From Porphyridium purpureum (taxonomy: Eukaryota): 64,000 nucleotides of DNA. Where the stretch lies: assembly GCA_008690995.1 (NCBI GenBank), contig VRMN01000020.1, positions 62,001 to 126,000 of the forward strand, read 5' to 3'. A program made the translations under genes and the position numbers. Below are positions 12,739 through 60,292 of this stretch, in pieces (the first letter of the stretch is position 1; every line of letters starts with the position of its first letter). Under the pieces are notes generated by a model. That model was not told the DNA's origin. It was given only the letters and a program-made list of their open reading frames with translations, and did no database searches.

Positions 12739-12801
<63 letters not shown>

Positions 12802-36400: not shown

Positions 36401-36640
36401 TTTGCTACGTCGTTCAAGCCGAGCGCAAGGCAACGCGCGCGAGTCGAGCGGCCGGTGTTTTTCACATTTTATGGACAAGTGTTCAGCTCGGACACGTCGT
36501 TTGACTTTTGGTCGAAATGGAAGACAAAGTTGGGCAAGCGGAAGCAGCAGCAAGCAGTGCAAGAGGCATTCGAGGCGTTGCCCAAGGTCGCCGCGCATGC
36601 GATGGGTGGTGATGATGCCGTCGGCGCGTCGCAGGTGTAA
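30449..36640 (+). CDS. DUOX: Dual oxidase (peroxidase-like ectodomain + TM + degenerate EF-hand region + gp91phox-like NADPH oxidase), 2063 aa
   Basis: Peroxidase domain: WDGAFNNIAHP, YADGAY, PNPR, FFGQ, WIDGTLFYG, RLGNPRTNENP, AAMRFGHTL, RRDLMAINIQRAREHG, DQFLRIRDGDRFWFEN. Ferric-reductase His pairs: EFH...LHVVGH and FWVMHH...LHGS. FAD site HPITISSAPH. NADPH sites IDGPYGEG, GSGIGCTPF and GRPNF. Confidence 0.95.
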   Translation: MEAFYRISLPRAPSTRNGQLVDIDPEGVYRDELFEEAQRMNDAEQGVLRSVLAQQRIKKRFSAGAIFGLSLMLLVSMLLPMLLVHSSMSRVRARVSSLPVFTKANTSRRFTGVLRQEAAVDIEWTPWDGAFNNIAHPEYGVVEGRITRPCLPRYADGAYAPSNPEGPNPRTVSELVMGGDTGYGSLTNKTAFLVFFGQQVVEEILDGQAFQPAEPYVNIPVPQCDPLYDPDCKGDLFIPLPRNRYDLSTGNAPGVPRAQLNEISAWIDGTLFYGPFKAWADTLRAYDEERPGRFACLVDEESGVENCNLPALNTIGLPIVNPPPPTLRDVRPAERFFRLGNPRTNENPMLLAFAVMWFRYHNVVADRIHAKHPDYDDEEVFLFARQWLIAIYQKIVFYDWLPSFLGIPREEFDEKYAYKGYRTVDPAISQEFQVAAMRFGHTLVTPGAYRREPYSCTPSSFEALRTCNSYFRGEEVLLEDDGPTKMLLGLASQLAEREDATITPDLRGFVFGVSLDATRRDLMAINIQRAREHGVGTYNQVRKCFRLPEVSSFDEISSLTDNPAFNNCTDAQGNTGVNCMQIAIEGLKLAYDNDISKCDLWPCGLLEVNVTGPGPLFQAILIDQFLRIRDGDRFWFENDNGPIANILSAEQIDEIWNTTIRDVMVDALELSDDVILQSNPFKYDPSVCAQPVQLSEFNLENCSAPSTYNWYRGHIPQREPSVTTTTSQRSVCEADSLAKILFGSKDGHEHDDRLQQELSTEEQAAAAGCPVYKARTKLARIMIMQQVMMERVKKGISQRYVSYLGSNDCGITNGDSLVQLAWTIAGIVMWLTANVIVMYFLVRWIKQRKGLRQFGRKAPKNGPFIPPDFKPTRSGTGVHMYKHNSKTTGYGCLIYHSFRHESSDVKGATVKLCEPEQAHFFLVGVGDSVQDGDARGIAREGDGHESRIDRSRATDSARPMEVREVLSGDITMISPSNVSEVRIFDKYLMVVCKIGSARLFEFDSPTKARLVLRELQESLSRTIGNGIEVNAASVNELAEGCTSRAERMEEIEQFFEEVKLDFKKKYSASATHTSFAAAATALSKWDMTGDTLLGDDMKLVHETVQKVTAYNLSGVAWTIHQNETDEAGAELGNGIAAKQSATRTTTQASASHRNTSKRPLGRSLSKLALRKTKGSLAAGSTQTSHGLWRGAGVRPEDVEDTVLFTKHEVAAVLHIHPSSFILSRMFYEGMGKRSSVITARQFRRAVENLLKAGESPGLFLAGLAVGEGQSIDKRLLLDIVYELKGGTGMDDVDLDRGDAQVMAKYMNATSSATLSVEEFGNMIVEMQEKTMKQRNVGWQQYLRQIKQDAEESANERTAPTGRKFEKLRSWQHSFVDYCKAHRFEIFWGVAYGLTIALIFLYTWWYYYSLREVYGLRGILTVGLCVTRASASVDMFVYSITLLPMCRNLITFLRSTKLHRYVPFDRAYEFHVVTAVTGEFFTALHVVGHCVNFYNITTQRSGDLTGYFRAVNWNSDFVPSFAFWVFETITGMTGFLLTFVIITLMVFAIRQVRAASFQLFWVMHHVCFMLLYTMIVLHGSFVLVQRPIFHYFLLGPLLLFILDKLYSFARESERLQIIEMRLLPKGVTALYVRVSPSFSYSSGQWARLKIPALGTSELHPITISSAPHDPYVSFHILACGPWTQALRDLAFEMQGKPVSSLPTIRIDGPYGEGHQDWMLYETVLLVGSGIGCTPFVSVLKDILHQVRSKTFRTTKVVAVFISRGIRDLAWITNELSQLEPYAPPGFLELLFFDTEQKVDKKTSTLDARHLAFDQAILRHVEYVSQILAGRSSLIRVRGFVLQGRPNFDTLLKDVQADCMAHGALSAETYSELQVGVFACASAPVTLSLKKACIKRDRDTMREIASRQAELGKKEFESREVSSADQDASQDGRGLNGEAAQGGNRTPERDTSSSSRLTATLREENVLSESLRESKMPSVDMNKIKNFATSFKPSARQRARVERPVFFTFYGQVFSSDTSFDFWSKWKTKLGKRKQQQAVQEAFEALPKVAAHAMGGDDAVGASQV

Positions 36641-37289: not shown

Positions 37290-37844
37290 CTAGAACGCAA
37301 AAGTACCTTGGAGCAAGCGGTGGGGAATGATAAGCGCATTGGCATCGAGCCAGGTGTCCAGCAGTGAGAGACCGAAAAGCTTTCGCGAAAAGCGCTCGAT
37401 GATCAGAAGCGCGTGGCCGAGACCCGGAGCGACCCATCGAGTGTAGCATGATGCTTTGACGCCATCCACGACGATGTCACCGTGCATAGTGTGCGGATTA
37501 TATAAACCCTTTGCGCGAACGCTTCGCCGCACTGAAAGGACACTGCCATTTTCACCGATTCCCGTGATCATGATGTCGCCAGGTTGAATGGTCCCAGCAA
37601 CAACCAGGTTACCGTTCGCGTAGACAAGATGCCCACTTGTGACAGTCAACATGTCATGCTCAAGCTGGATTTGGACGAAATCATCATGGACACTTTCCGC
37701 ATCATGGTGGCCCCAGAATACCACTGGGCTAAATGCATCAGACGACACGCGCACTATATCACCTACTTTCAGTGTATCCATTCGCTTCAACGAGCCATCC
37801 TCCATCCCGACCAGTCCGCTAGCTGGGAAGCAAGTCCCAGAGAC

Positions 37845-37895
<51 letters not shown>

Positions 37896-38900
37896 TTGAA
37901 TTTGCATACCGGGCTGATAGCCATCGGTGCAATTTTCAAAGCTGGGCCTCTGCATCACACAGCCAAGCCAACTCGTCATGGCCGAGAGGCGCGTATACAC
38001 GGCAGCTGGGTATTCAGGGTCTGCACAGCCCGTTCCAAAGGAGACAATTCCGATTTGAAGACGGCCTACGGAGCTCTCTCCCGTGTCGTCGCCGAGAATG
38101 AGTGGACCACCGCTATCGCCCTGGCAAGTATCTGCAGGAGGCTCGGGCTCGTATCCAGCACAGAGCATGCTCGTTGCTTTGAACGAGGAGCCGTACAGGC
38201 TACGGCACAGACTATCCGGCTCTACGAATATATCTTCTTCCAGAAGAATGTTTGAACCGTCGCCGCCAAAAAAGAGGTCCCCGAAGCCAATGATGGTCGA
38301 CCTCTCGCCCTCGAGGTCCACGCCGTTTGACGATGTATCCAAACCAAAAATCCGCGCGTATGTAGAAATTGTCACGTCTTCGCTCAACTCAATCAGAGCG
38401 GCGTCCCATTCAAAGGAGAATTCATCCCACTTGGGGTGTCTGTACACGTTGACGGCACGCGCGTTAAGGCCTGTGGTGGATTTGACTGAGTCATACAATC
38501 CAACAACCGCGGACGGTACAAAAATGTCCTCCAGAAAGCAGTGCGCAGCAGTCAAGATCCAGCGCGAGCCGACGATCGTGCCGCCGCAGCTGTACTGTTC
38601 ATTGAGGTCGGCATACGAGATCAACACTTGCGCAAACCACGGATACTCCCCTTGATCCGCGGGCTTTCCATTCACAATACGCTGCAGGCCGTGCGCGACT
38701 TTCAACCGCCGCGTACTGGGCTCTGACGCGCGGTCGCTCCATCTCGGCTCCTTCACTGCCGGGGTACCGGCGCGCTTCCCTTCTACCCGCTGAAGCATCG
38801 TCGCGCCACCTCGAGACGCACAGTCAAGTCCAACAAGCATCAAAACCACTATGCTTAAAGCATACGCGCCGCCCATTCCACGTCTCGTACTTCGACCCAT
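37290..38900 (-). CDS. Secreted trypsin-like (S1) serine protease fused to a hedgehog-type Hint (Hog) autoprocessing domain
   Basis: Signal-like AYALSIVVLMLVGL; activation site R-IVNG; triad motifs LTAAHC, WDAAL and DTCQGDSGGP; acidic/Gly linker; Hint motifs CFPASG..V, L.VGD.V, LTVTSGHLVY and GLYNPHT.HG.IVVDGV.ASCY. Start at 38900 or 38876. Confidence 0.92.
37846..37896 (-). repeat. (GAT)n + (GGT)n microsatellite encoding the poly-Asp/poly-Gly linker
   Basis: tca and cca runs on the + strand between the protease and Hint domains. Confidence 0.9.
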
Positions 38901-41900
38901 CGTTCGCTGAGTACTAAGCATCTGCCCTGAGGAACAAGGCAAGCACGCATGACAAATCTTGTCACGCAGCACACTGACAGTCGCTTCTCTTCCTCCTGCT
39001 GGTCTGACTCGAACGCTTCGTTCCTTCTGCGTATCACACTGTTCCACCATCACCAGGCCCGGTATCCCCCGATACGTATACCCAACAACCGGCGCCAAAG
39101 CCACCACGCCGCTCACAAAAAACACCGGCGTGACGCTGCAAAAAATCACAATTCAGAGCACCCGCGCAACATCCCCTGCGAAAGAGAAATTCAAGCACCG
39201 ATGCGAGAGACATGAGCTCACTCAGGCCGAAAGCAAAAAGAATTCATTTATGCGTGACTCAAGTTGCGAGCCAACGGCGCCGACTCGCAGCCTTCAGTGG
39301 TACAGACCAGGGATTGACTACTCACGAACTCCATGCGCTAGAACATTGCGCGAGACGAGCTGTGCACCGTGTCTCGTAAAGTATGAAAAAATCGCGCCGC
39401 TGCTGCTTCACGTAAAGATGCATGTGGCCGAACAGATATGCACAAGACGATGAAGGCTGGACGCTGTTGAGCGTCCGAAGCTGTGGCCGCGCGTGGCGAG
39501 CAAATCAGATGATACCTGGTTGAGAGAGTATCGCTTTATGCGAAATGAATACTAACCGTCAGATGATTTAGCGCGATGTCGAAAAATTATCGGTCCCAGT
39601 CGAAAGTCGCAGAACTTTTTCTGACCCGATTGATTCCACTGCGATCGAAAAAGATCGTTAAGCGTGACTCATAGGCGGGCGCCGCTGTCCAGGAGTGTGC
39701 AAAGTTCAACGCAGCTTTCGTCAACCTTTCAGCCCACGTGCAGAGCCGGGAACCGCGTGCGTCAAAGCTTCTCATGTGCCCAGGCCCCATCAACGCCTGC
39801 ATTGCCGCGAATTCAGTACCGTTGGCGGCATGCTCGCTTCTGTTCGCCTGGAGAAGCAGTGCTCAGCCTCAGGGGCGCCCACATCAGTGCTAGCCACAGT
39901 TTATACTTCAAAGTCGCTTTCCGCCAGCCGAGGAAAAGGTACTCGTCGCAAATAAGCCCGGTCTCTCACCAGCACGTGCATGATGGAACAGAGGGTCTCG
40001 GGTAAGGGACATGTAGATCGCGAAGACAGACGCATTTGCAGCGTGCCATTTGACCATCTTGCTGTTCTAGCTCTTGTGGAAATCTCGCATGTGCCCGAGA
40101 AGATTGGGCTTTCACTGGTCACGCTCTGGGCGAGAGAGGCAGGTCTCGGGTTCACCGCACGCCCGCGCGCGCATCTCCCTGCGCTCTTGCCGCGGAAAGA
40201 AAGGGCGCGATTCAGTGTACTATGCGCGTCCTGGTGGCGGTATTGTTCGGTCTGAGCTCGCTTCGGGACGAGGTTCTTCTGGGGTTGAACGCGACGCCAT
40301 GGCGTCTTGCTGGTCCGACCGGCACGAAACGGCCCAAGGTATTGCTCCGAGCCAACTGGAAATAGTTCTCACCCAGGATCGGGTGTGCAGGAGCAAGTGG
40401 GTTTGGATCCCGAGCAGGCGCCTGCGCTTCCGATGTCCGTTCCGCCCGGTGTCGAGGAGCAGCTGGCGCGCAGGGGGGCTTGGGTAGGAGGCGCTTGCAC
40501 ATGTGCGCGGACCGCACGGCACGCGAAGAATGGAACCCACGATCAGAAGGCTGTACGATTCAAATGCGCTTATGGGCTAAGTGTATGCCCGCGCGCATAC
40601 GTGTCCTTGTGGTAGTCTGGGAAAGGAGGAAACCTATGTGTGGCAGATTCCCAAGCTTGTGGAACCGTAGGTACTTGCATCAGCGGCTGAACTGCTCACT
40701 ACGCAGAGTATCGGTGAGAAAGTTTCTCGCGAGTGCGACAGCAAACCGTATCAGCTGGCTTTCACGGCTGAAGCGCGCTCCTCACCTGCGTTCATGTTAT
40801 ATTATGTCCCGGTCGGGCATAATCCGGACATGTTTGAAACTTTTCTTCTTGAGACGTGCGATTGTGGCAATATGTTCGTGGTCGATAAAGGCGCCGTGAC
40901 ACACCTGGCGTGAAAAACGCCGTTTTCGTCGCGCGACTCCATCGCAACTCATCCGGAGCGGTGGGCGCGGGATGCGGGCAAAATGCCTTATCTGTTCAGA
41001 AACGAGGCAGAGCTCAAAGGGATGGATGCTGGGCGTTGGAAGATTGAGAAGGCGCCGCGTTATTTGTTGCTCACCGAACGTAAGCTGTCCTAGCATCCAC
41101 TAGCTCGGAAAATCGTGACGGCGGGTTCCAACGCAAACTTGGCGTATGTCATCCAGATTGTGCTCGGGTATGCTCTCACGCACCTGGAGGAATGTGAGTT
41201 GAGGTCTGATCAGACAGTAGCCATCGTGTACCATTCAGTTTCAACCCAAGTTTGAGTGGCATGAAAGCTCGCCGATGCAGGACGGCGCCGGAAGGGTCCC
41301 ACGCATGGTGATGTGGAAATGGGCTGCAAAGCGCGCGACCCCTTCAGAGGCGGTCATTCTTGATTTTTTTGGGCATTGCGTGGGATGCTGTGCCACTGGC
41401 GAAGCTCTTGCACACTGCTTTGTTCCGATGCAATGCATTGACCAAAGCCATGCAACGTTTCTCTTCATGGGTCGTGGGTGCGGAATACATGTATTGAGTG
41501 TAAAGGTGTGTCGATGATGCAGCTCGTCAACGCGATCATCGTCATCGATGCGCAGCGATCTCCATGTATCCATGGATTCATGTGAATCGGCGCACATGCG
41601 CAATCCAACCGTGGAGCACTTTGTGTGGTTGTTCACGTTTGCTCACTTGCTGTTATGTTTGCCACTGTCCGACGAACAATGCATCTACCGTGGACAGAGA
41701 AGGGATTTTACTTCCCTGAGTAGGATTGACTCCAAATCAAAAGCGTGGCCTTGCGATGCTGAAGTCTCGTGAAATCGTTCACCGTGCGCAACGCGCGTAG
41801 ATGGAATATGTTTTCTACTTGGAAGTATAAAACCGATTCATAGTTCAATCATCTTTCATCAAGCTTTGGAGAAATAATCGTTGTCCAGCTGAGCATGACT

Positions 41901-42116: not shown

Positions 42117-44924
42117 TCATTGCACAGGACGACGCATACGGTGACGTGAGCCTTGCTTCGGTTCGCCTCTCACATCTGATGGCCTCGAGAGACGCGCCCT
42201 CATGCAGAAATCGTTGCATCGATGAGCTGCGAACCAGTCCATCATACCCTCCTCTCCTAGGTCCGTCAGCCCAAATTGGCCTTCTGTCTTGCTCAGAATC
42301 ACCGGATCAGTGAACAGGAAGTAAGTCGAAGCACCGTGCAGCTTCGGCCCACCCGGTTTACCCCTGTAGCCCTGCAAGTCACAAACGATATGCTCGCCTT
42401 TCGAGTGCACCCACGTCCAGTGGCTAAAGAAGTCTGGTACAGAGCCACTTTCGCTTGTCCACCCAGAATTACTGTTGAACTTTTCGTACTCTCCATGAAC
42501 CTTCATCTCCACAAACATGTCTTCACCAGCAGTGATGGCCAAGCCGCCATCAGGCACTCGCACGTCAATTGGACATTTCGCGATACTGCCCAGTCGGAAG
42601 TAGACCTTCAAACTCTCGCCATCCTTGGAAAGGTTGAAAGTCGCATTAAATGCATCAGAATAATCGCGACACAGCATTTGAAGCGTCCTCTCGTCCGCAT
42701 CGATACGTACGCCTTGGGCATACAGATCCCGCTTCATCACCTTCAACACGAGTTCCGACCCGCATTCAAATCTGAGCGGAGTGCCACGCTTCACGACACC
42801 ACCGAAAACCACGCGAGACGCACCTTCACCCAGCGGTTTCGTGTCCATCGTAATTGCTCCCGAATCAATGAGTAGATCCACGGTCAGAGCACTAATAAAC
42901 ATGTCGAGAGGAACGAACTGGACGACAACTGTTGTCCGCGCAGAGCGTGCGTCTGATCTAAGATCTCGCTTTGTCTCATAGTTCACCGCACCGACCTTGA
43001 GGGCTTCAAACATTGATGCCACGGAATCCAGATGTATCTCACGAAATCTTGCCAGCTCGGCCTGAACTCGCTGATCCGCATTGTCTGTGCCTACGTTATT
43101 CTCATTTCCCCAAGGTATAAAGGCAAGGTATACTTTTGCGGGAAAAAACAGTTCCTTCACGTTCTTCCCAGCTCCATGCGACGAAGTAGGCTTTCCAACA
43201 AAGTGTAGTCTTCTCGTGCTGCCTCTGGTATACCTTGCGAATATTCTGCACATGGACGCTTCGGCAACTTGGCGCAGAACAGCTGTAGACAGATCGAGAA
43301 GCGCCTTTTCCTTCGCCGACACATCGTTTCCAGACGCTAGGCCTTTGGCGAGCTCTTGACGCTCAATATCAAACTGCAGGCGGAACTTTGTGGTGATAAT
43401 ATTATTTGTCGACGCCCAAGACAACAATTCCTCGCGACGCGTGCGTGCGGCTTCGGTCTCGATCTCACAGTCTGGATCATACTCGGCGTCGAGGGCGAAC
43501 CAGCGCTTTGGCGGTGGAACTGAGATGCCGAAAGACTCTAACACCTTGGATTGGCTCTCCACCAGTCGTGTCAAGCTTTCGCCTTTAATCGCACGCTTCT
43601 TGGCAACTTTCGGGTTGAGAGTCCATTTCGTCAGCACAACACCCATCACCTCATGGGCATCGTCCCCGAACACTTCAACTGCAATCTCAAACAATTTCGC
43701 GTGCAACGGCGTCACGCGAGGGTTGGATGTGTCAACAACCAACAGCACAGCGCATGCTGATTGGTCCCCACTGAGAAATGTCTTGAACTCGTGCAACACT
43801 TCCACGTCTGTGCCGGACGAGTCCGAGAAGCCAGGCGTATCCACACAGTTCAATCGAGTTCCTTTGAAGTCGAGTGAAAGAGACAGGAGCTCTTTGGTGT
43901 CAGACTCAATGCCGTGGCTGATGTGGAAGGCGCTACTGTCATTGGCGGCCAAGGACGCGCCATCCACCAGAAAAGAAGCCAAACTTGATGTGCCCGCGCC
44001 TGTCGTACCCAGCAGGAAAATATTCCTTGGGTTTTTGCTCGCTGATGTCAACTGACGAACGAGGTTTGAGTCTGTGCTAGCTGCTACAGGTGCGTGTATA
44101 CCGTGATTCGCGTCTTCAGCTTGATTCACTAGCGGCACGTCTGGATACAATGGATAAAGTGGCGCAGGAAGGAGGGCCGTATCGAATGGCGCCACGGCTG
44201 GCTTCGATGGCGCCGGGTCTGCATGCAATGGCGCGTCGTCTGCATACAATGACGCCTGGCCTGCATGCGATGGCGCGTCGTCTGCATGCAATGGCGCCTC
44301 GTCTGCATACAATGGCGCCGGGTCTGGATTCCATGACTTCGCGTCATGCCAGGTCTCATCCGTAGAAGCATTCTCATAGGGAACCTCAACGGACGCACGT
44401 GTCGTCTCAAGATCTCCAACAGGGGCCCTTGCGGTTTGCGGTTCACAATGACCTGGATACCCATTGTTCGCACCAGATGTACCAGCCAAGGAGAAAGCAT
44501 CCGCGGCATGGATCCCCGAGCTTGGAAAGCTTGTGACGGATTCTCTCGCACCAGAAACACGCGGACCATGCGGACCTGAAATTCTACGATATCGAGGATC
44601 TGTGTCGTAGTCCCTGCCTAAAGCCATGTTTCGGTACAAGATCTGATGGCTGACCGGGTCCTTCACCACAATCCACTTTTCACCGTTGAGGATGAAAATA
44701 TGGCCTTCCGGCGGGTCCAATGACTTCTGATTGTGGGGACCTCCATTATAGACGGACTGCTTTCGGTCTTCGTCCCACTCCTCTCGATACGTAGGGTGGG
44801 TGGATGCATTGGAAATTGCAGACGGACACGAATCAGAATCGTACGCTTTGTTTGTGCGCACGTTTCGTGAAACCTGCTCGCGCGGGCGATCGCCAAGAGG
44901 CAGGTCGTGAATTTGCTGAGACAT
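42117..44924 (-). CDS. AIG1/GIMAP-like (TRAFAC) GTPase-domain + alpha-kinase (eEF2K/MHCK family) fusion protein
   Basis: GTPase: NIFLLGTTGAGTSS, SDTKE, VDTPGFSDS, VVLTKW. Alpha-kinase: PLGEGASR, VLKVMK, VEMKVHGEYEKFNSNSGW, FFSHWTWVHSKGEHIVCDLQG, FTDPVI, GLTDLGEEGM..WFAAHRCNDFC. Confidence 0.9.
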   Translation of the reverse strand: MSQQIHDLPLGDRPREQVSRNVRTNKAYDSDSCPSAISNASTHPTYREEWDEDRKQSVYNGGPHNQKSLDPPEGHIFILNGEKWIVVKDPVSHQILYRNMALGRDYDTDPRYRRISGPHGPRVSGARESVTSFPSSGIHAADAFSLAGTSGANNGYPGHCEPQTARAPVGDLETTRASVEVPYENASTDETWHDAKSWNPDPAPLYADEAPLHADDAPSHAGQASLYADDAPLHADPAPSKPAVAPFDTALLPAPLYPLYPDVPLVNQAEDANHGIHAPVAASTDSNLVRQLTSASKNPRNIFLLGTTGAGTSSLASFLVDGASLAANDSSAFHISHGIESDTKELLSLSLDFKGTRLNCVDTPGFSDSSGTDVEVLHEFKTFLSGDQSACAVLLVVDTSNPRVTPLHAKLFEIAVEVFGDDAHEVMGVVLTKWTLNPKVAKKRAIKGESLTRLVESQSKVLESFGISVPPPKRWFALDAEYDPDCEIETEAARTRREELLSWASTNNIITTKFRLQFDIERQELAKGLASGNDVSAKEKALLDLSTAVLRQVAEASMCRIFARYTRGSTRRLHFVGKPTSSHGAGKNVKELFFPAKVYLAFIPWGNENNVGTDNADQRVQAELARFREIHLDSVASMFEALKVGAVNYETKRDLRSDARSARTTVVVQFVPLDMFISALTVDLLIDSGAITMDTKPLGEGASRVVFGGVVKRGTPLRFECGSELVLKVMKRDLYAQGVRIDADERTLQMLCRDYSDAFNATFNLSKDGESLKVYFRLGSIAKCPIDVRVPDGGLAITAGEDMFVEMKVHGEYEKFNSNSGWTSESGSVPDFFSHWTWVHSKGEHIVCDLQGYRGKPGGPKLHGASTYFLFTDPVILSKTEGQFGLTDLGEEGMMDWFAAHRCNDFCMRARLSRPSDVRGEPKQGSRHRMRRPVQ
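44184..44326 (-). repeat. 21-nt coding tandem repeat (APL[Y/H]AD[D/E] heptapeptides)
   Basis: About 7 copies of a tctgcatgcaatggcgcgtcg-like unit. Confidence 0.85.
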
Positions 44925-45606
44925 TGTTTCGCCTATCTCTTTCTGATTTGGGTACCGACAAGCTTCCGGATAAAATTAGACACGTAGACCACGCAGCGAA
45001 TGAGCGCCTACCTAGGCGTGCGAACCTGTCCGCTGCCACCCAACTTGATTCACGCACTCTTCACCGCTCCGCGAAGCTTGGCGAAGATATCTGACAGACG
45101 GAGCGCTAGGAAGGAGCGCTCGACATCCTCTAGTTATACTTGTTAGTCTGTATGCTTGGGATAGAAAGAGTCCGCCGTGCTGCGACAACTAGCTGCTAAC
45201 CGTGAAATCATATGAAAGCAGGCGGTTAGAAGCGAGTAGATCGCGGATTGATGGCGCAGCCCGTTGTACTACCAAAATATCGCGTCTCCGTGATGTGGAT
45301 GCGCCCCAAATTAATTTGCGATATGCCCTCGCATTTTGCGTGTCAAAGGCGTGAGCTGTCCGGGCCTACGTGCGCCCTTTCTGCGGCGCTCCACACTACG
45401 CCTTCATTCCCACTTTTCCATGTGTTCACGCGAGTTGCCTTGCGAATCGCGTCCGTTGGCGTCATCCTTGTCGCGGCGTGGATTTCCGCCGTTATGGAAT
45501 AATATTCCACACACCACGCTCATGATCATAACGACCTACAGTTGGAGCGTGACCCACTGATAATCGTGTCCGTTTTTCAGTACTCACGGCTTCTGCCCTT
45601 TTCGCC

Positions 45607-45816
45607 TATAAAAAAGCGCCGGTGCTTTGTGGCTTTTTCTTTTTTCTTTTTTCTTTCTCAGCGTAGAATTTAGCACCGATGTGTCTCAAATTCACACGAC
45701 GCGCGAGGAAAGAGACTCCGCACAGCAGCACTGTATGCACGTGTCTGATAAGCGTTTCATTCTGGCGAGGATGGAACAGAAACGTGCGTTCCGCATAGGT
45801 CGCTGTGGGGTATAAA
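45607..45816 (+). promoter_or_regulatory. Candidate TATA boxes upstream of the GTPase gene
   Basis: TATAAAA at 45607-45613 and TATAAA at 45811-45816 in the divergent intergenic region. Confidence 0.35.
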
Positions 45817-46031
45817 GAGGCGGGCAGTCTTGTCAGGCTGCTTTCACGAACACCACATCCGCGCGGGCGAGCGGGCGTGCAGCTGGGAATTATCGCGTAG
45901 ACATTGATTTGCGCGAGCGAACACGGTCTTTGACGAGCGTTGGGTCTCGGTTACTTGCGGAACGTAGTACGAGGCTTCCCTGCCCACAGTAGCGGAAGAC
46001 TTGAGGAGCCCCGTTCGAAGACTGTGGTAGC

Positions 46032-47270
46032 ATGATGGGTACGCTGCCACTCCAAATCATTTTGATTGGAGTGACCGGCGTAGGGAAAAGCACTCTTGCG
46101 AACACGATTGCGACTGGATTATCAAATGTTGATCCGGACGAGAGAGATAGACTGACCCAGATTTTCGCTGTCTGCAATGGCGCAGAGTCGTGTACGACCG
46201 CGACAAAGCGTGAAATAGTCAAACATAAAAGCCGAGAGCTCTCCATTGTCGATACGCCCGGGTTCATGGACACCTCGGGAAGCGACACAGGAATCATGCA
46301 GGCTTTTCGTGCATTTCTGAACAACAACCAGAACGCCAGTGGTGTGTTGCTGGTACTCAACGCAACAGATTGTCGAATTACTGAGGTCCATCAAGCGATG
46401 TTTAGGACAGTTGGTGAAGTGTTTGGCAAGGAAGTTGGTCGGATTTTCGGAGTAGCCTTTACGCACATGTCGCAAAACGCAAAGGAAAAAAGGAAGCGTG
46501 AAGTCAAGGGCCAATCTGAGAAGTCGATGATTGCATCTTGGACATCTGCGCTGAAGAGCAGAGATATACTTTGCCCCGCAAATGACAAGTGGTTCTTTTT
46601 GGATGCAGAGTTTGCACATGATGATAAAGACGAGGTGGTCTTTGCCCAAAAGGAACGCCAAAGACTGCTGGACTGGGCCCTTTCGAATCCTGTGGTGAAG
46701 ACTGAGATGCGTCTCGAACTTGAGCAGAAACAGCAGGAATACCTTCACCTCGCTAGGCAGACCGGTGATATTAAGGATGCGATGCTCAAGCTCTCGAAAG
46801 ACATCTTTGCACGACTGAAAGAACTCGTTGGTGTCGACAGGAGGTGGAGGCGACCACAAGGGAAAGAATATTTTGAGTTTCAGCCCAACAAGGGTGGAAA
46901 TGCGATTATTGGGATACTAACCCTCGGCATGGAAGTCCAAGTTGACCGTTTCCGACTTTATTTCGAGGCGACTGACGGTGATGGGGACAATGCTGACGAC
47001 GACTTGGTGGATCACTTTTTGACCATGACCACTGAACTTACGCTGCGCCAGATTGAGGCTATTATGAACAGGAAAAAAGTGGGGCTGCGCGACTTTCGCA
47101 CATCAAGTTTGGTCAAGTATGGCGCCGTGCACAGGAATAATATCCTCAACATTACGCTTGTTTTGTGCGGAACGGGAGGTTTTGAAGCACTCGCCAAAGC
47201 TGCGGCTACTGCGGCAGACAGCATCCGAGCCACGAAGATGGGGAAGCCGAAAGAGGCATCGTGGAAGTGA
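46032..47270 (+). CDS. AIG1/GIMAP-like GTPase with intact P-loop and C-terminal extension
   Basis: IILIGVTGVGKST (G1), ESCT (G2), IVDTPGFMDT (G3) and AFTH (G4); collinear similarity to the GTPase domain of 42117-44924. Confidence 0.88.
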   Translation: MMGTLPLQIILIGVTGVGKSTLANTIATGLSNVDPDERDRLTQIFAVCNGAESCTTATKREIVKHKSRELSIVDTPGFMDTSGSDTGIMQAFRAFLNNNQNASGVLLVLNATDCRITEVHQAMFRTVGEVFGKEVGRIFGVAFTHMSQNAKEKRKREVKGQSEKSMIASWTSALKSRDILCPANDKWFFLDAEFAHDDKDEVVFAQKERQRLLDWALSNPVVKTEMRLELEQKQQEYLHLARQTGDIKDAMLKLSKDIFARLKELVGVDRRWRRPQGKEYFEFQPNKGGNAIIGILTLGMEVQVDRFRLYFEATDGDGDNADDDLVDHFLTMTTELTLRQIEAIMNRKKVGLRDFRTSSLVKYGAVHRNNILNITLVLCGTGGFEALAKAAATAADSIRATKMGKPKEASWK

Positions 47271-50198: not shown

Positions 50199-51758
50199 AT
50201 GAATGAGCATGGAGCAAGGCCTGTGGCAGCCCTGCCACTGGACGAGTCCGGCGATGACGGCGCTTTGATCGCGGACACGCTGGCTGCGGCCGGGATTGGA
50301 GGCGAGGCGAGTCAGAGTAGCGCTGGCAAGCATGAGGATGAGACCGCGTGCGGTTCGACGTCGAACTCGGTGTCCACGGCGTCCAAGACGGGCTCTCATG
50401 CTCGACTTAAGCTTCATGGCGGAAGTGAGCTGCGGGACCAGAGCCAGAATGGTGCGTCCGGGCAGGACGATTCTAGCGGACACAGCCACCAGAGTCGGAA
50501 GTACCTTGTGCATTACCCATCAACAGCAGAGCGCGATGAGTCTGTGCATATCATGAGCAAGGAGAAGTCCAAGTTTTTGGCGCTTCAGCTCAAGCTAGAC
50601 TCGCCGCCGTCGCACGTGCTGCTTGTGCGCTCCCCGCATACGGGGGAGGTGACGCTCGACGCGATTGCGACGCTGGCGCGCGAGCTGATCGCCAAGTACT
50701 CGGTGTGTGTGGTGACATCGGCGGACGACGCACGAGCGCTTGAGACCCAGTACAATGTCGTTGTGGCAAACTATGCGTCTGAGCGCGTGCGTGCAGGCCG
50801 CTTTTACTGTGCGGCGAGTCTGCGGGTGCCAAAGAGCGCCATGGTGCCAGGTGGAGACGACGATGGATGCGGCTGGCTCACGCGAGTGCCAAGTGTTGAA
50901 AATCGGGTCTACTCCAAGCATGCCAGAAGAGAGTTTTCTCTTGCGGATCTCGAAGAAAAAATCGGGCTCGTCGTGGGCCTTGGTGGTGACGGATTGCTCC
51001 TGTACGTATGCAGCGAACTATTTTATACCAAGGTGCCACCGATTCTGGGATTCAACTTTGGCTCGTTGGGCTTCTTGACGCCCTTTTCGATCGACCAGTC
51101 TTCATCCGTTTCCAAGCAAGTATTTGAAGAGATGATGGTACCGTACACGAAGCGCATGCGGCTGCAATGCACGCTGTATCGTCTGCAACAAGTGGATGTC
51201 GCAAATACCAACTCTGCGACGAGCGGTGATATTGAAGAGCGCTTGCAGCAGGACGAAGAGACGCACTTCCTTGAAAACGAATTCCACGTCACGAACGAGG
51301 TGGTCATTGACCGCGGCCCCGCAGCGTATCTGACCAATCTCGAATGCTTTTGCGACGGTATTTTTGTGACGCGTGTGCAGGCAGACGGTCTCATTATTGC
51401 CACTCCAACGGGTTCAACGGCGTACTCTTTGTCCGCGGGTGGCTCCATGGTTCACCCGTCCGTGCCATGCATCCTGTTTACTCCCATCTGCCCCCACTCG
51501 CTAAGTTTCCGTCCTGTCCTGTTTCCAGATGGCGTGGAGCTGAAGCTGTGCGTGCCGCACCACGCACGCAACTCGGCGTGGATCAGCTTTGATGGTCGCA
51601 ACCGTGTCGAAATGAAACGTGGGGATTTCATTCTCGTCAGGAAAAGTCTATACCCGCTCCGCACGCTCAATCACGAGAATCCGATCAGCGATTGGTTTTC
51701 TGCAATCCAGCGCTGCCTGCGTTGGAACGAACGTGAGTCTCAAAGAACGTTTCCGTAA
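50199..51758 (+). CDS. NADK: NAD(+) kinase
   Basis: GLGGDG, FNFGSLGFLT, NEVVIDRG, ADGLIIATPTGSTAYSLSAGGSMVHP, TPICPHSLSFRP, SFDGR and L.WNER motifs; first ATG at 50199. Confidence 0.95.
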   Translation: MNEHGARPVAALPLDESGDDGALIADTLAAAGIGGEASQSSAGKHEDETACGSTSNSVSTASKTGSHARLKLHGGSELRDQSQNGASGQDDSSGHSHQSRKYLVHYPSTAERDESVHIMSKEKSKFLALQLKLDSPPSHVLLVRSPHTGEVTLDAIATLARELIAKYSVCVVTSADDARALETQYNVVVANYASERVRAGRFYCAASLRVPKSAMVPGGDDDGCGWLTRVPSVENRVYSKHARREFSLADLEEKIGLVVGLGGDGLLLYVCSELFYTKVPPILGFNFGSLGFLTPFSIDQSSSVSKQVFEEMMVPYTKRMRLQCTLYRLQQVDVANTNSATSGDIEERLQQDEETHFLENEFHVTNEVVIDRGPAAYLTNLECFCDGIFVTRVQADGLIIATPTGSTAYSLSAGGSMVHPSVPCILFTPICPHSLSFRPVLFPDGVELKLCVPHHARNSAWISFDGRNRVEMKRGDFILVRKSLYPLRTLNHENPISDWFSAIQRCLRWNERESQRTFP

Positions 51759-52346: not shown

Positions 52347-55319
52347 TCAACGCATTTGGTTCAACCGACTCTTCGCTTGCGCTATTCCCTTTTCCGCAGC
52401 CTTGCGGTACCACTCGGCGGCTGCGCGCTTGTCCTTGCGCAGACCGCCCTCTCCGTTCTCGTAACATGCACCCAAATTATACTGCGCCCTCGCGTTTCCC
52501 TGTTCCGCGGCGTGACGATACCACTCGACCGCTGCGCGCTTGTCTTGGGACAGCCCACCCTCCCCGTTGTCGTAGTAATAGCCCAAGTTATACTGCGCCG
52601 ATGCGACCCCCTGTATTGCGGCCTTGTAGAACCACTCGACCGCCGCGCGCTTGTCCTCGGGCAGACCGCCCTCCCCGTTTGCGTAGCAAAGGGCCAAGTT
52701 ATTCTGAGCCGATGCGATTCCCTGTTCCGCGGCCTTGCGGAACCACGCAACCGCCGTGCGCTTGTCCTCGCGCACAACGCCCTCTCCACTGGCGTAGCAA
52801 ACGCCCAGCATACACTGTGCCCGTGCATTTCCCTGTTCCGCGGCCTTGCGATACCACTCGACCGCCGCGCACTTGTCCTCGCGCAGACCACCCAACCCGT
52901 TCTCGTGCTGAAGGCCCAAGTTGCACTGCGCGTCTGCGTCACCCTGTTCCGCGGCCTTGCGGAACCACTCGGCCGCTGCATGCTGATCCTCGCGCAGACC
53001 GCCCCACCCCTTTTGATAAAAGTAGCCGACACGACACTGCGAGTAGGCGTCTCCCACCTGCGCCGCCTTGCGGTACCAGAGCAACGCTTCCGTGTAATTG
53101 CTGTTGGTCAACTCCTCGATCTGACCACGTCGCTGCCAGCCTGCGGCGTCGCGGCGCGCTTGCCGCTCTTCGGCCTCCAACGCTTCCAGCCATGCGGACC
53201 CGGCCGAACTGCCGAGCTTCGCGGCCTTTCCATACCACTCCTTCGCAAGACTCATGTTCTGCGGCACTCCCCGCCCAGAGTGGTGGCAGCGGCCAAACTC
53301 AATCATGGCGTCCACGTAATCTTTCTCAGCAGCGGCGCGCACCCAACCCGCGCCGTGCTCCAGGTGCTGGCTCATGCCGTGCGTACCGTCAAGCAAAATC
53401 TTGCCCAGCCGGAACCGGCCTTCCGCGGTGCCTGCTTCTGCAGCTTGCTTAATGCACTCGTACGCATTCGGCATGTTCCCTGATTGCTCCCACTCTTCTG
53501 CGAGGCGGAGCCTTTCATCAACACTCAGCACTTGCACTTGCAGAGGCCGGGATCCACTTGGCCGCGCCGGGCTGCCTCCGACGCCTGATGAGGCGGCTTC
53601 TGACCTACCAGATTCCACCGTGACCTGCGAAAACCTTGCAGCAAATGCGTCAAGCTTTGTCATGCTGGCGTCAAACGAGGGTGGAACATACTGGCTGGTC
53701 TGTGATCTTGCAGCCGCAGTGGCCCCCTCCGCACCCATCCGGTCATAAAATTCGAGCCAGACATCAGAAACCGTCGCGCGCCTCCTGGGCTCGGGCTGCA
53801 GACACGCATGTGCCATATTTACCACCCAGCTGGGCCATTGTTTAGCATACTCCGATCTCTTCAATCTGTCCCACGGCACGCCCCGCAGCGGATCTTCGAT
53901 GATCCTCAGAATTTGAACCATCGTGCAGTCGCTTTCGAACATCGCCTCGCCGAGTAGCATTTCGAACAACATGACGCCGTACGACCACACGTCGCAGGAA
54001 CGGTCGTACTGGTCGCCGCGGATAACCTCTGGTGCCATATACTGGCTGGTCCCAACCGTTGACTTTGCAAAAGCACGCGAGTTCTTCACCGTAGCCAGCC
54101 CGAAATCACTAATCTTCGGAGTCCAGTCATCCATCAGAAGAATGTTCTGGGGCTTGATATCTCGATGAACGATTTTGCTGGCATGCAGGTATTTCAAGCC
54201 CTCCAGAACCTCACGGAAAATACTCAGCAATGTGTCCTTCGGAAGCAAAGTCATAATGTTGCTAGCGAACATGTACTTTTCGAGCGAGCCTTTCGGGGCG
54301 TATTCGAGCAGAATCAGCGGCACTTCGCCTTCGTGGTCATCCACACCGGCCAATGGGTAAAAACCTCCATGCGTCCGAATAATGTTCTCGTGTGAAACTC
54401 GCCACATCATTTCTAGCTCGTTCTTAAACTCCTGTATCGCTTTGTCACCTGATGAATTGACTTGCTTGATGGCAACAGTCTCTCCCCCGCATGTGCCCCG
54501 GAAAACTGTCCCAAAGCCACCGGTGCCGAGTGTGACAAACTTTCGCTTCTTACCGTGTACGCGCTCTTCCTTTTCGACATCAGCAACGTCTATAAACCAC
54601 GGCTCGATGAGCTGCGGCTGCATTGAATCACCACCCTTAGAATGACTTGCATGACGGTATGGATTTGGAGTACTTGTCGACATGCTGTGCATTTGCAGAA
54701 CAGCGACCCTTTCCGGAAGAGCCCGTAGTTCACGCTCGAGCATTGATCTATCCCTCACTCTGTCCGCATCACGAGCGCGCATCATCTCCTGATGATTTTG
54801 CTCTAGCTTGCGCAGCAACTCCTGCTGATTCTGCTCCTGGTCGTGCGCGATTTTGGAAGTGATGATGCTCGATAATTGCGACTCGAGTTCGGTTAGCCGA
54901 TCGCCGCACGCCTGGAACTCGCCGAGGTAGTTCTTCGCCCGCATAGCGCGCACCACTTTTCCATACGCGCTTTCGGCACTTGAAAACTTCTTCACGAGCG
55001 AGCAGGCGGACTGGAGTCCAGACTCCAAGTCGCTGAGGCACGCAAGCAGACTTCTATTCATCAAGCCGTGTCTCTTGTTCATGAGCTTCTCACCATCGGG
55101 GCCAAAGTATTCAACCAGCATGTTTCTGATGCCCGTGGCGCGCTTGGCGAGCAGCATGCATGAGTCCTTGTTCGCCTTTGCCGCCTGCGCATACTCTATA
55201 ATAATCTTGGAAACCGCGTAAGCGACCGCGACGTATGGAAGTACAAGCCCGACATCGTCGACGATTGCGCCAGCCACTTTCACACCGTCCTCCCATGGCT
55301 GTCTCTTGGCCGTCGCCAT
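52347..55319 (-). CDS. MLKL-like N-terminal four-helix-bundle + Ser/Thr (TKL-like) protein kinase + Sel1-repeat protein
   Basis: The N-terminus LPYVAVAYAVSKIIIEYAQAAKANKDSCMLLAKR...LSDLESGL..ACSLVKKF resembles MLKL/HeLo-like domains. Kinase motifs LGTGGFG, VAIK, HRDIKPQN, DFG, GTSQYMAPE and DVWSYG. Sel1 units AQYNLG..Y.NG.G....D...A.EWYRKAAEQG. Confidence 0.9.
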   Translation of the reverse strand: MATAKRQPWEDGVKVAGAIVDDVGLVLPYVAVAYAVSKIIIEYAQAAKANKDSCMLLAKRATGIRNMLVEYFGPDGEKLMNKRHGLMNRSLLACLSDLESGLQSACSLVKKFSSAESAYGKVVRAMRAKNYLGEFQACGDRLTELESQLSSIITSKIAHDQEQNQQELLRKLEQNHQEMMRARDADRVRDRSMLERELRALPERVAVLQMHSMSTSTPNPYRHASHSKGGDSMQPQLIEPWFIDVADVEKEERVHGKKRKFVTLGTGGFGTVFRGTCGGETVAIKQVNSSGDKAIQEFKNELEMMWRVSHENIIRTHGGFYPLAGVDDHEGEVPLILLEYAPKGSLEKYMFASNIMTLLPKDTLLSIFREVLEGLKYLHASKIVHRDIKPQNILLMDDWTPKISDFGLATVKNSRAFAKSTVGTSQYMAPEVIRGDQYDRSCDVWSYGVMLFEMLLGEAMFESDCTMVQILRIIEDPLRGVPWDRLKRSEYAKQWPSWVVNMAHACLQPEPRRRATVSDVWLEFYDRMGAEGATAAARSQTSQYVPPSFDASMTKLDAFAARFSQVTVESGRSEAASSGVGGSPARPSGSRPLQVQVLSVDERLRLAEEWEQSGNMPNAYECIKQAAEAGTAEGRFRLGKILLDGTHGMSQHLEHGAGWVRAAAEKDYVDAMIEFGRCHHSGRGVPQNMSLAKEWYGKAAKLGSSAGSAWLEALEAEERQARRDAAGWQRRGQIEELTNSNYTEALLWYRKAAQVGDAYSQCRVGYFYQKGWGGLREDQHAAAEWFRKAAEQGDADAQCNLGLQHENGLGGLREDKCAAVEWYRKAAEQGNARAQCMLGVCYASGEGVVREDKRTAVAWFRKAAEQGIASAQNNLALCYANGEGGLPEDKRAAVEWFYKAAIQGVASAQYNLGYYYDNGEGGLSQDKRAAVEWYRHAAEQGNARAQYNLGACYENGEGGLRKDKRAAAEWYRKAAEKGIAQAKSRLNQMR
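52360..53080 (-). repeat. 111-nt (37-aa) tandem Sel1 repeat array with high DNA similarity
   Basis: The anchor CCAC(TCG) recurs at 52410, 52521, 52632, 52743, 52854 and 52965, exactly 111 nt apart. Confidence 0.92.
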
Positions 55320-58711: not shown

Positions 58712-60292
58712 ATGGCGCGCATGCGTTCGTGGGCTGGCGCCGTGGCGATCGCGCTGCTCGCGGTATGGTCGGCAAGGCACAGTGCGATCGCGCAGGAGCT
58801 CTGCCAGCTGGTCGAGCTCAGCGACCCGTGCTTGGGCGAGGGGGCGCTGGGCCTGGTTCCAGTCGCACAAGGACCGGTCGCTTGCACGCCCATCCCCGCG
58901 ACGTGTCTTAGTGGGTTCCCCGAGTGCGCGTTGCAGCCCTGCCTGAAATACGTCGAGTCGGGCGATGCCCAGCAGATGGTGCTCGAGTACGAGGATGTGT
59001 CGCAGGTAGCGCTGGAATTTTCTGCATTGCCTGTGGACGTTGTGGTCGATTACGGCGACGGAACGCTGGCGGTGTACGTGAGCATGGGGACATTCGTGCA
59101 CACTTACAGTGCGCAGGGCGACTATCCAGTCGTCATCTTGGGAAGCCTGGGCGGAATCAGGTTCTCGGACGGCATCGCGGCCGTGGCTTCGTGGGGCGAG
59201 CTCGGCCTGACCACGTTGGATGCGGCTTTCTCGGGCGTGAGTTCACTGCAGAGTCTTCCCGCGGACATTCCGCGCACCGTCACTGATCTGAGTAGCATGT
59301 TTGCGGGCTCATCTTTCAACGGAGAGATCGGCAGCTGGGATACATCTAGCGTGACAGACATGCGCGACATGTTTGAAGGCGCCAGTGCTTTCAGTCAGGA
59401 CCTCTCCAGCTGGGATGTAAGCCGAGTCCAGAGTTGCAGTGGATTCGACCTAGGAGCTCCCTTGAATTGCGCGTTTGCACCCGGGCCCCTTGGTCCCTGT
59501 GATGGAGGGTTCGCTTGCGGGCTTATGGACATGGTGCTCGAGTACCCGTTTACCACTACAGTAGCTTTGGAATTCTCTGTACCGCCTGTCGACGTTGTGG
59601 TCGATTATGGTGATGGAACGGTAACTGCGTACACGAGCGTTGGGGAAGTCGAGCATAGCTTCAACTTTATCACGGATGGTCGCGTGGTTATCTCGGGAAG
59701 TCTGGGTGGGATAAGGTTTAAGAACGGCATCAGTTTTGTGAATGCGTGGGGCGATCTGGGCCTCACCACACTGAGTGGGGCCTTCTCTGATGTAACATCG
59801 CTGCAAAGTCTTCCCGCCGACATCCCGCACACCGTCACCGACCTGACCGGCATGTTTGCGTCGTCAAACTTTAATGGAGACATTGGCTCGTGGGACGTGT
59901 CGAGGGTGACAAGTATGGCCTTGATGTTCTCATTTTCTTCGTTTAATCGAGATATTGGCGCGTGGGACACGTCCGGCGTGACAGACATGCGCGACATGTT
60001 TCTGTTTTCTTTGTTTGATGGAGATATTGGCACATGGAACACGTCCAGCGTGACAAGAATGGACTTTATGTTTTCTGAGGCATCTTTCAACCAAGACATA
60101 TCTGACTGGGATGTGAGTCGTGTCACTGACATGAGTGGCATGTTTTTCCAAGCTGCGAATTTCGACCAGGATCTTTCTCAGTGGGATGTAAGCCAAGTCA
60201 GCATGTGTGGCGACTTTGACCAAGGGGCTCCCATGAATTGCGCGTTCACGGCGGGGCCCCTTGGCCCTTGCGATGGAGGGTTGACCTGCTAG
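58712..60292 (+). CDS. Secreted DUF285 / BspA-family surface-repeat protein with two tandem modules
   Basis: Signal peptide ([14 protein letters not shown]), Cys-rich N-terminus and about 25-aa repeats [18 protein letters not shown] / [20 protein letters not shown]; modules start at 58976 and 59531. Confidence 0.9.

What the first reader, a model, noticed from the sequence alone, without database searches (positions are those of the whole stretch)
42117..47270. Divergent paralogous GTPase pair: P-loop-defective GTPase-alpha-kinase facing an intact GTPase
Seen: two head-to-head genes 1107 nt apart share a GTPase domain (DTPGFSDSSGTDVEVLHEFKTFL vs DTPGFMDTSGSDTGIMQAFRAFL; RWFALDAEY...REELLSWA vs KWFFLDAEF...RQRLLDWA). 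One has canonical GxxGxGKS; the other has GTTGAGTS and an added alpha-kinase. Established: paired plant NLRs are arranged head-to-head, and P-loop-variant IRG GTPases (GMS) regulate canonical (GKS) ones. Inference: a sensor/effector heterodimer in which GTPase state controls an alpha-kinase, possibly targeting translation as eEF2K does.
Basis: partly seen in the sequence, partly recalled or inferred. Interest (0 to 1): 0.8.

Follow-up and report, generated by a model that had tools for sequence, protein, structure and literature searches.

The report
Red algal GTPase pair with kinase
Two facing genes of a single-celled red alga encode related GIMAP-type GTPases, one fused to an alpha-kinase, which are predicted to pair and would likely switch the kinase, while the 'broken' GTP-binding loop is a one-letter change confined to one of two near-identical gene copies.

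Summary
Observation confirmed: a 935-aa AIG1/GIMAP-class GTPase-alpha-kinase gene (42117-44924, -) faces a 412-aa paralogous GTPase gene (46032-47270, +) across 1107 nt; 34% identity over 262 aa; both transcribed divergently. Named near-identical proteins are from Porphyridium purpureum. A 97%-identical second copy in a duplicated gene block, and the Erythrolobus ortholog, keep GxxGxGKS (9 of 10 aligned family members have Lys). So this is no fixed GMS/GKS-like pseudo-GTPase. What survives: solo and fusion types split before Porphyridium and Erythrolobus diverged (species-specific duplication rejected, p-AU 0.0002); both keep G2, G3 and the conserved-box arginine; the kinase keeps all catalytic and zinc residues; a predicted heterodimer scores 0.76 against 0.01 for the best control, each arginine reaching the partner's P-loop. 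That pass may reflect solved GIMAP/Toc dimers, and homodimers were not tested. Best reading: a dimerisation-switched GTPase pair controlling a fused alpha-kinase, ROCO-like in layout but GIMAP-derived. The eEF2 target is unsupported. I found no such fusion in print. New variant of a known kind; interest 0.45.

The parts
42117..44924 (-). Fusion gene, 935 aa (P0001): low-complexity N-terminus with degenerate WW-like region, AIG1/GIMAP-class GTPase, helical segment and small alpha/beta C-domain, alpha-kinase
   Evidence: transcribed on this strand in 3 of 3 raw-read runs
44589..44792 (-). About aa 45-112: aligns with the WW-like region of the Erythrolobus ortholog; degenerate here (no Pfam WW hit in P0001)
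   Evidence: alignment; PF00397 in P0007 at E 1.2e-5, 25.7 bits, under the 26.9 cut-off
44164..44352 (-). In-frame 21-nt (7-aa) tandem repeats in the Ala/Pro/Asp-rich linker
   Evidence: family D1, 21-nt spacing
43365..44039 (-). GTPase domain of the fusion, aa about 296-520
   Evidence: 40% identical to the Erythrolobus ortholog (91/225)
43986..44009 (-). P-loop GTTGAGTS, aa 306-313; Thr312 codon at 43989-43991 where the sister copy and ortholog have Lys
43716..43718 (-). Arg403, conserved-box arginine; predicted to touch the solo GTPase's P-loop and switch I
   Evidence: chain 2 residue 109
42885..43364 (-). Helical segment and C-domain, aa about 521-680, likely homologous to the C-terminal third of the solo protein
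   Evidence: C-domain alone only hhalign E 7e-4, probability 27%
42204..42830 (-). Alpha-kinase domain, aa 699-907, with Lys728, Asp849, Asp873, the glycine-rich GLTDLGEEG loop and zinc ligands His835, His901, Cys903, Cys907
   Evidence: 54% identical to the ortholog (127/234)
44925..46031 (.). Shared 1107-nt upstream region; TATAAA at 45811 just ahead of where solo-gene reads begin
46032..47270 (+). Solo GTPase gene, 412 aa (P0002): GTPase, helical segment, C-domain; no transmembrane segment
   Evidence: transcribed on this strand in 3 of 3 raw-read runs
46068..46091 (+). Canonical P-loop GVTGVGKS, aa 13-20
46374..46376 (+). Arg115, conserved-box arginine, aligned with the arginine of GIMAP7's G-R-Y-T-E-E box; predicted to touch the fusion's P-loop
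40507..55319 (.). Approximate block present in a second near-identical copy (fusion, solo GTPase, NAD kinase, kinase-Sel1 gene) on another scaffold; limits approximate
   Evidence: loose ends at 40507; DUOX, DUOXA and the 58712 gene show no second copy

Best explanation
Two paralogous GIMAP/AIG1-class GTPases, one of them fused to an alpha-kinase with intact catalytic residues, are encoded head to head and are predicted to form a heterodimer that likely switches the kinase according to the bound nucleotide. Shown: an old duplication, older than the Porphyridium-Erythrolobus split, gave a solo type and a type that gained an N-terminal WW-like region and a C-terminal alpha-kinase; both types keep G2, G3 and the conserved-box arginine, and all but one member keep G1. 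Predicted: they dock through the G-interface with each arginine reaching the partner's P-loop, as GIMAP7 does. Inferred: GTP binding and dimerisation are relayed through the helical segment and C-domain to the kinase, mutual hydrolysis resets the switch, and the WW-like region picks substrate or site; the role is most likely stress or defence signalling, substrate unknown. The Thr312 P-loop is a recent change in one of two copies of a duplicated block; it likely weakens that copy's GTP binding and is most simply a tolerated change in a redundant copy, not the design of the system.
For: Both types in two genera: P0005 47% and P0007 41% identical. Tree: fusion and solo each one side of a branch in 200 of 200 bootstrap trees; Porphyridium-only duplication rejected, p-AU 0.0002. 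Motifs: G2 Thr in 10 of 10, G3 DxPG in 10 of 10, conserved-box Arg in 9 of 10, G1 Lys in 9 of 10 aligned members. Closest solved structure is GIMAP7 by sequence (E 1.5e-15), Foldseek (E 9e-12) and VIA-align (Z 16.0, rmsd 3.3, 189 aligned). Complex prediction 0.76, 0.74, 0.76 against controls 0.00, 0.00, 0.01 (mark reached by 51 of 78 solved and 2 of 108 mismatched pairs; runs agree in at least 45% of contacts; partner pLDDT at least 57); interface is P-loop, switch I and conserved box, Arg115 on fusion residues 308-309 and Asn401-Pro402-Arg403 on solo residues 15-16 and 48-51. Precedent: GIMAPs regulate GTPase activity by homo- and heterodimerisation, GIMAP7 activates GIMAP2, GIMAP6 inhibits GIMAP7 (PMC9111091, PMC8201404, passages). 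Kinase: Z 22.3 to MHCK-A, invariant Lys, two Asp and zinc ligands present (their role from PMC2827801 passages). Both genes transcribed in 3 of 3 raw-read runs of one study.
Against: The complex pass may come from likeness to solved GIMAP7 and Toc34 dimers, does not tell which family member binds, was run without my alignments, at pLDDT 57-59 and with ligands outside the calibration; homodimers were not modelled. Adjacency is shown for one species only: the second copy is a recent block duplicate and so not independent; Erythrolobus data are transcripts. A third solo paralog P0004 sits on another scaffold with no annotated fusion partner found. Three RNA runs cannot show co-regulation. No result links GTPase state to kinase activity. 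The G4 aspartate is missing in 10 of 10 members, so guanine specificity itself is untested. The C-domain has no identified fold.
Confidence: 0.5

Rival explanations
1. The two proteins work apart, each as a homodimer; the head-to-head layout is only the trace of an inverted duplication, and the fusion is a self-contained GTPase-kinase switch.
For: Each protein has its own arginine and, in the Lys-type copy, a full active site. Inverted-repeat-driven head-to-head duplicates are described for plant AIG1/IAN genes (PMC12845241, passages). Divergent pairs are common in the window, 5 of 15. Extra solo paralogs exist in both genera (P0004, P0009, P0056). The complex tool warns that close cousins pass without being the true partner.
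Against: Both types have been kept since before the two genera split and are still neighbours in this species although only 34% identical; the heterodimer is modelled with reciprocal arginines and contacts from family-specific helices.
Confidence: 0.27
2. The window's Thr312 copy is a pseudo-GTPase in the making: a duplicate selected to lose nucleotide binding while keeping its arginine and kinase, acting as a constitutive or inhibitory partner as GIMAP6 does for GIMAP7.
For: The allele is transcribed with an open frame, Arg403 and all kinase residues intact. The two fusion copies differ at 27 of 935 residues against 14 of 1509 in two flanking duplicated genes (Fisher p 0.0005). At the 6 of 27 sites that the ortholog polarises, the window copy is derived at 3 of 3 in GTPase and C-domain and the sister at 3 of 3 in the kinase (noticed after the fact). 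GIMAP6 binds no GTP yet inhibits GIMAP7 (PMC9111091, passages).
Against: One base change in one copy; absent from X15 contigs (2 of 2 Lys) and X21 reads (2 of 2 Lys); no accompanying interface changes of the kind GMS proteins carry (PMC3042988, passages); relaxed selection gives the same pattern; no DNA of the sister copy for dN/dS.
Confidence: 0.1
3. One reading: a conserved sensor/effector pair with a built-in P-loop-dead partner, like IRG GMS/GKS or paired NLRs, whose kinase shuts down translation like eEF2K.
For: Thr for Lys in this copy; head-to-head layout; predicted heterodimer.
Against: Lys in the 97%-identical sister, in the ortholog and in a third, more distant fusion-type copy; GMS is a subfamily-wide substitution with further interface changes (PMC3042988, passages); no LRR or other sensor domain; eEF2K is not the nearest kinase and needs a C-terminal eEF2-binding domain (PMC2827801, passages) that has no counterpart here.
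Confidence: 0.05
4. The pair are divergent plastid import receptors, Toc34-like (solo) and Toc159-like (fusion with an acidic disordered N-terminus).
For: Toc33/34 are among the structural neighbours (Z 14.7; E 6e-8); Toc GTPases carry the AIG1 domain (PMC12845241); the fusion's N-terminus is low-complexity and acidic (40 D+E against 23 K+R in 295 aa).
Against: TIGR00991 18.9 bits against a 421.55 cut-off and TIGR00993 12 against 660.7 for the solo protein, neither listed for the fusion; best 19-residue hydropathy 1.39 and 1.72, no membrane anchor; GIMAP7 ranks above Toc in three searches.
Confidence: 0.03

Closest known systems
GIMAP heterodimers (GIMAP7-GIMAP2, GIMAP7-GIMAP6); PDB 3ZJC
   Same: AIG1-type GTPase domain followed by a helical segment; conserved-box arginine; predicted dimer through P-loop, switch I and conserved box; paralogs clustered in the genome (clustering recalled)
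   Different: About 21% identity; own clade; G4 lacks Asp and an invariant W-x-x-x-D-[AS]-E-[FY] motif follows; extra C-domain; one partner carries a kinase; no membrane anchor
ROCO kinases (LRRK1/LRRK2, Dictyostelium ROCOs)
   Same: Layout of interaction module, GTPase, intervening domain, protein kinase in one chain (PMC1420674 passages, PMC11378527 abstract); LRRK1 was second in the structural list for the solo model (Z 15.4, 175 aligned)
   Different: GTPase is AIG1-class, no Pfam Roc or COR hit, kinase is an alpha-kinase, not TKL; a separate kinase-less paralog sits beside it. An analogy, likely convergent
IRG GKS/GMS system
   Same: Paralogous GTPases predicted to meet at the catalytic interface; one P-loop variant lacking Lys
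   Different: Different GTPase family; here the variant is one recent substitution in one copy, not a subfamily; IRGs use no arginine finger (PMC3042988)
Alpha-kinases (MHCK-A, Entamoeba alpha-kinase 4KUJ, TRPM7, eEF2K, ALPK1)
   Same: Fold and all catalytic and zinc residues
   Different: No WD40, vWA, calmodulin-binding or eEF2-binding parts; nearest named sequence relatives are dinoflagellate and choanoflagellate proteins (3 of 8 kinase hits looked up had names); 0 of 144 kinase-only hits carry this GTPase
Plant IAN/AIG1 head-to-head duplicates
   Same: AIG1 paralogs arranged head to head (PMC12845241, passages)
   Different: Those are recent duplicates; this pair is old (34% identity) and asymmetric in domain content

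Membership tests
AIG1/GIMAP-Toc-septin-like GTPases | Pfam AIG1 above gathering score | tested here: met
   34.2 and 60.1 bits against 27
AIG1/GIMAP-Toc-septin-like GTPases | G1 GxxxxGKS, G2 Thr, G3 DxxG | tested here: met
   G2 and G3 in 10 of 10, G1 Lys in 9 of 10; the window's fusion is the exception
AIG1/GIMAP-Toc-septin-like GTPases | Conserved-box arginine at the dimer interface | tested here: met
   Arg115 aligns with GIMAP7's box arginine (its role as arginine finger R103 is recalled, not read); Arg in 9 of 10; in the predicted interface
GIMAP proper (animal-type) | Falls inside the GIMAP clade; G4 with Asp | tested here: not met
   Separate clade from 3-4 GIMAP-like outgroups (few outgroups, long branches); G4 Asp absent in 10 of 10
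AIG1/GIMAP-Toc-septin-like GTPases | GTP binding, hydrolysis and nucleotide-dependent dimerisation | not testable with these tools
   needs biochemistry; only a predicted dimer
Alpha-kinase | Pfam Alpha_kinase, fold, invariant Lys and two Asp, glycine-rich loop, zinc ligands | tested here: met
   120 bits; Z 22.3, rmsd 2.3, 203 aligned to MHCK-A; residues
eEF2K | N-terminal calmodulin-binding and C-terminal eEF2-binding domain; nearest kinase relative | tested here: not met
   kinase ends at aa 907 of 935; no further Pfam domain; eEF2K below MHCK-A, 4KUJ
IRG GMS-type regulator | Fixed loss of the P-loop Lys across the subfamily | tested here: not met
   Lys in sister copy, ortholog and third copy
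ROCO | Roc-COR tandem | tested here: inconclusive
   no Roc or COR Pfam hit at E 0.01 and GTPase is AIG1-class; the C-domain was not folded and searched alone, so a remote COR likeness is not excluded
Toc34/Toc159 | TIGR00991/TIGR00993 above cut-off; membrane anchor | tested here: not met
Paired NLR-like sensor/executor | Conserved head-to-head linkage and a ligand-sensing domain in one partner | tested here: inconclusive
   linkage seen in one species only; no sensor domain by Pfam; C-domain function unknown

The most novel reading that the evidence does not exclude
Porphyridiophycean red algae independently built a ROCO-like signalling machine from a GIMAP-class GTPase: an obligate heterodimer in which a kinase-less partner, encoded head to head, supplies an arginine finger in trans and so times an alpha-kinase, within a defence-flavoured gene neighbourhood; and a recent block duplication has produced a transcribed P-loop-dead copy, a pseudo-GTPase caught at birth.
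Probability: 0.2. Interest if true: 0.75.

Novelty: new variant of a known kind. Interest (0 to 1): 0.45.

Why it matters
How GIMAP/AIG1 GTPases pass a signal on is poorly understood (PMC8857920 abstract start says their exact mechanism remains unclear). A natural fusion to a kinase gives a direct read-out of GTPase state, with its likely partner encoded next door and a natural Lys/Thr pair for comparison, in a culturable alga. If the coupling holds, it is a second, independent origin of the GTPase-linker-kinase design known from LRRK2. The narrow range found so far (two genera) and the lack of any functional data limit the weight; the striking pseudo-GTPase claim does not hold as a conserved feature.

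Tried and rejected
Assembly error for Thr312: rejected, reads and a contig carry it. Conserved P-loop loss: rejected. Porphyridium-specific origin of the pair: rejected; monophyly of all red algal rows to the exclusion of the unnamed protein P0080 was neither shown nor rejected (p-AU 0.144). Search for shorter relatives of the fusion's GTPase part found 0 of 4405 candidates and missed even known 34% paralogs, so it only speaks against close ones. ESM Atlas gave no usable hit twice. No long inverted repeat around or between the genes. Earlier findings of the scan: 3 look-ups, nothing. Literature on ploidy or duplication in the species: two searches gave nothing relevant in their listings, so allele versus segmental duplicate stays open; single-copy DUOX, DUOXA and 58712 genes favour a partial block duplication or partial haplotig. 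Searches for a published AIG1/GIMAP-alpha-kinase fusion (listings and abstract starts only) showed none; subscription papers and supplements were not seen.


Full report
Observation. The window holds two intron-free ORFs head to head, 1107 nt apart: P0001 (42117-44924, minus, 935 aa) and P0002 (46032-47270, plus, 412 aa). They align over 262 residues at 34% identity, E 1e-44. Pfam gives AIG1 for both and Alpha_kinase for P0001. Near-identical named proteins are from the red alga Porphyridium purpureum. Stranded RNA reads of 3 of 3 raw-read runs (one study, same species label, 20-25% of each run read) cover the two genes on opposite strands at similar depth; reads of sister copies are included, and three runs cannot show co-regulation.

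The P-loop. P0001 has Thr312 for the P-loop Lys, a one-base difference at 43990. Its cluster has a second member, P0008 (KAA8490626.1, 97% identical), which has Lys; so has the Erythrolobus australicus ortholog P0007. P0008 has the accession next to P0003 (KAA8490627.1, 98% to P0002) on one scaffold, and the NAD kinase and kinase-Sel1 genes further along also have second copies there (KAA8490629.1, KAA8490630.1), whereas DUOX, DUOXA and the 58712 gene do not (5 of 9 look-ups were found; the 4 misses were guessed starts of one gene). So a block of about 15 kb exists twice. At 43990, X23 has 5 of 6 reads with the Thr base and 1 with the Lys base, X21 2 of 2 Lys, X15 2 of 2 contigs Lys, and the X1 contig matches the window without a difference. 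The Thr form is therefore real and transcribed, but Lys is the ancestral and general state: 9 of 10 aligned members. That loss of this Lys usually impairs nucleotide binding or hydrolysis is established knowledge, not tested here. IRG GMS proteins carry their Lys substitution subfamily-wide along with further interface changes (PMC3042988, passages); that is not the case here.

Anatomy. The whole solo protein appears to be contained in the fusion: hhalign matches 349 columns, phmmer aligns the Erythrolobus solo protein in one stretch to fusion residues 298-662, and the two AlphaFold models show the same order of elements after the GTPase (helices, then strand, helix, helix, strand, strand, helix; this part of the fusion model is under pLDDT 50). 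The C-domain alone matches weakly (hhalign E 7e-4; top non-self hits among 166 proteins at E 0.06-0.18), so I call it likely homologous. The ortholog has a sub-threshold WW hit at its N-terminus, degenerate in P0001. The kinase is the best conserved part (54% to the ortholog against 40% for the GTPase), matches MHCK-A at Z 22.3 and keeps Lys728, Asp849, Asp873, the glycine-rich loop and His/His/Cys/Cys (roles from PMC2827801, passages). Both GTPases keep G2, G3 and the conserved-box Arg (Arg115, Arg403); G4 lacks its Asp in all 10 members and an invariant W-x-x-x-D-[AS]-E motif follows. GIMAP7 is the nearest solved relative in four searches. Toc34/159 models score far under their cut-offs and no membrane anchor is seen.

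Distribution and age. Among the best 150 of 2479 hits of an unindexed search of 1.84 billion representatives, 6 matched the GTPase part and only P0001 and P0007 spanned both domains; 0 of the 144 kinase-only hits carry the family GTPase. Kinase relatives with names are from dinoflagellates and a choanoflagellate (3 of 8 looked up) and bear assorted partner domains (27 scanned). One unnamed 428-aa protein (P0080) belongs to the GTPase clade without a kinase. In trees of 15 and 13 rows the red algal rows and P0080 stand apart from GIMAP-like outgroups (weak, 60/87; 100/99 after leaving out L004 and L002; long branches flagged). Fusion and solo types each fall on one side of a branch in 200 of 200 bootstrap trees, and a Porphyridium-only duplication is rejected (p-AU 0.0002). 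Both types thus predate the split of the two genera. Whether they are neighbours in Erythrolobus could not be tested.

Do they bind? One complex prediction (solo full length, fusion aa 295-690, GTP and Mg riding along) scored 0.76, 0.74 and 0.76 against a best control of 0.01; the mark was reached by 51 of 78 solved complexes and 2 of 108 mismatched pairs (on eukaryotes 39 of 65 solved pairs without an older like complex and 2 of 126 unrelated pairs); runs agree in at least 45% of contacts; partner pLDDT at least 57. The interface is the G-interface: Arg115 touches fusion residues 308-309, and Asn401-Pro402-Arg403 touch solo residues 15-16 and 48-51. This is the geometry described for the GIMAP6-GIMAP7 model, where switches, P-loop and conserved box form the contact (PMC9111091, passages). 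Because GIMAP7 and Toc34 dimers are solved, the pass may reflect likeness; it does not separate hetero- from homodimer, and close cousins of true partners also pass. It supports binding and does not show it.

Mechanism. Shown: architecture, motifs, age, transcription, copy-specific Thr. Predicted: heterodimer with reciprocal arginines. Inferred: as in GIMAPs, where dimerisation replaces GAPs and GIMAP7 activates GIMAP2 (PMC9111091, PMC8201404, passages), GTP loading brings the two together, the change is passed through the helical segment and C-domain to the abutting kinase, and mutual hydrolysis ends the signal. I put this at 0.5, independent homodimers at 0.27. The role is likely stress or defence signalling, by family association (PMC3417536, passages) and neighbourhood, which is weak. 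Nothing points to eEF2. The Thr copy is most simply a tolerated change in a redundant duplicate; the faster divergence of the fusion copies (27 of 935 against 14 of 1509 in flanking genes, p 0.0005) and the split of derived sites (3 of 3 against 3 of 3, only 6 of 27 polarised) leave a 0.1 chance that it is becoming a nucleotide-free regulator.

Comparison and novelty. It works like a GIMAP heterodimer and is laid out like a ROCO kinase (PMC1420674, passages; PMC11378527, abstract and outline), but is a member of neither GIMAP proper nor, as far as tested, ROCO, eEF2K, Toc or GMS-type regulators. Head-to-head AIG1 duplicates are known in Arabidopsis (PMC12845241, passages). Five literature searches (listings and abstract starts) showed no AIG1/GIMAP-alpha-kinase fusion; the library lacks most subscription papers and I saw no supplements. 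Interest 0.45.

Noticed in passing
window 27297-28790 (-) and 30449-36640 (+): A DuoxA maturation-factor gene (Pfam E 2e-51) and a 2063-aa dual oxidase (peroxidase, ferric reductase, FAD and NAD domains) lie head to head, 1658 nt apart, in a red alga. The same divergent DUOX/DUOXA layout is listed for human (PMC2871058, passages). One literature search showed no paper naming Porphyridium for it. Possibly more interesting than the finding itself.
   Followed up: partly
window 11049-25361 (-): Five tandem, same-strand paralogous ORFs of 525-969 aa, 25-42% identical in aligned parts (E to 1e-76), with no convincing Pfam match.
   Followed up: partly
window 52347-55319 (-): Protein kinase with Sel1 repeats and a weak MLKL N-terminal-domain hit (E 0.003, under cut-off). 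With DUOX, trypsin-Hint (37290-39149) and NAD kinase (50199-51758) it gives the region a defence or oxidative-burst flavour; untested.
   Followed up: partly
window 43623-43793 and 43957-44039 (runs X1, X15, X23): A third, about 88-90% identical fusion-type GTPase sequence with Lys in the P-loop; its upstream loose end reads as a start codon right before the GTPase domain, so it may lack the long N-terminus. No protein for it. It may face P0004; not testable.
   Followed up: partly
window about 44175-46840: The two copies are identical in protein over the facing halves (fusion aa 1-250, solo aa 1-269) and differ by 4-5% outside (chance 2e-4 and 6e-4): gene conversion, recombination or an assembly mosaic.
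   Followed up: partly
L004:125-2347: A related AIG1-like GTPase with a similar F-L-D-S motif is fused to a class 3 lipase (740 aa), hinting that this GTPase branch takes on different effector domains; its place in the tree is weak.
   Followed up: partly
window 40500-41830 (+): Stranded RNA reads cover a region without a long ORF, convergent with and overlapping the fusion transcript's 3' end near 41570-41830.
   Followed up: no
window 58712-60292 (+): Protein with a hydrophobic N-terminus, weak PKD hits and DUF285 repeats (E 3e-63), a family named from mycoplasmas; possible horizontal acquisition.
   Followed up: no
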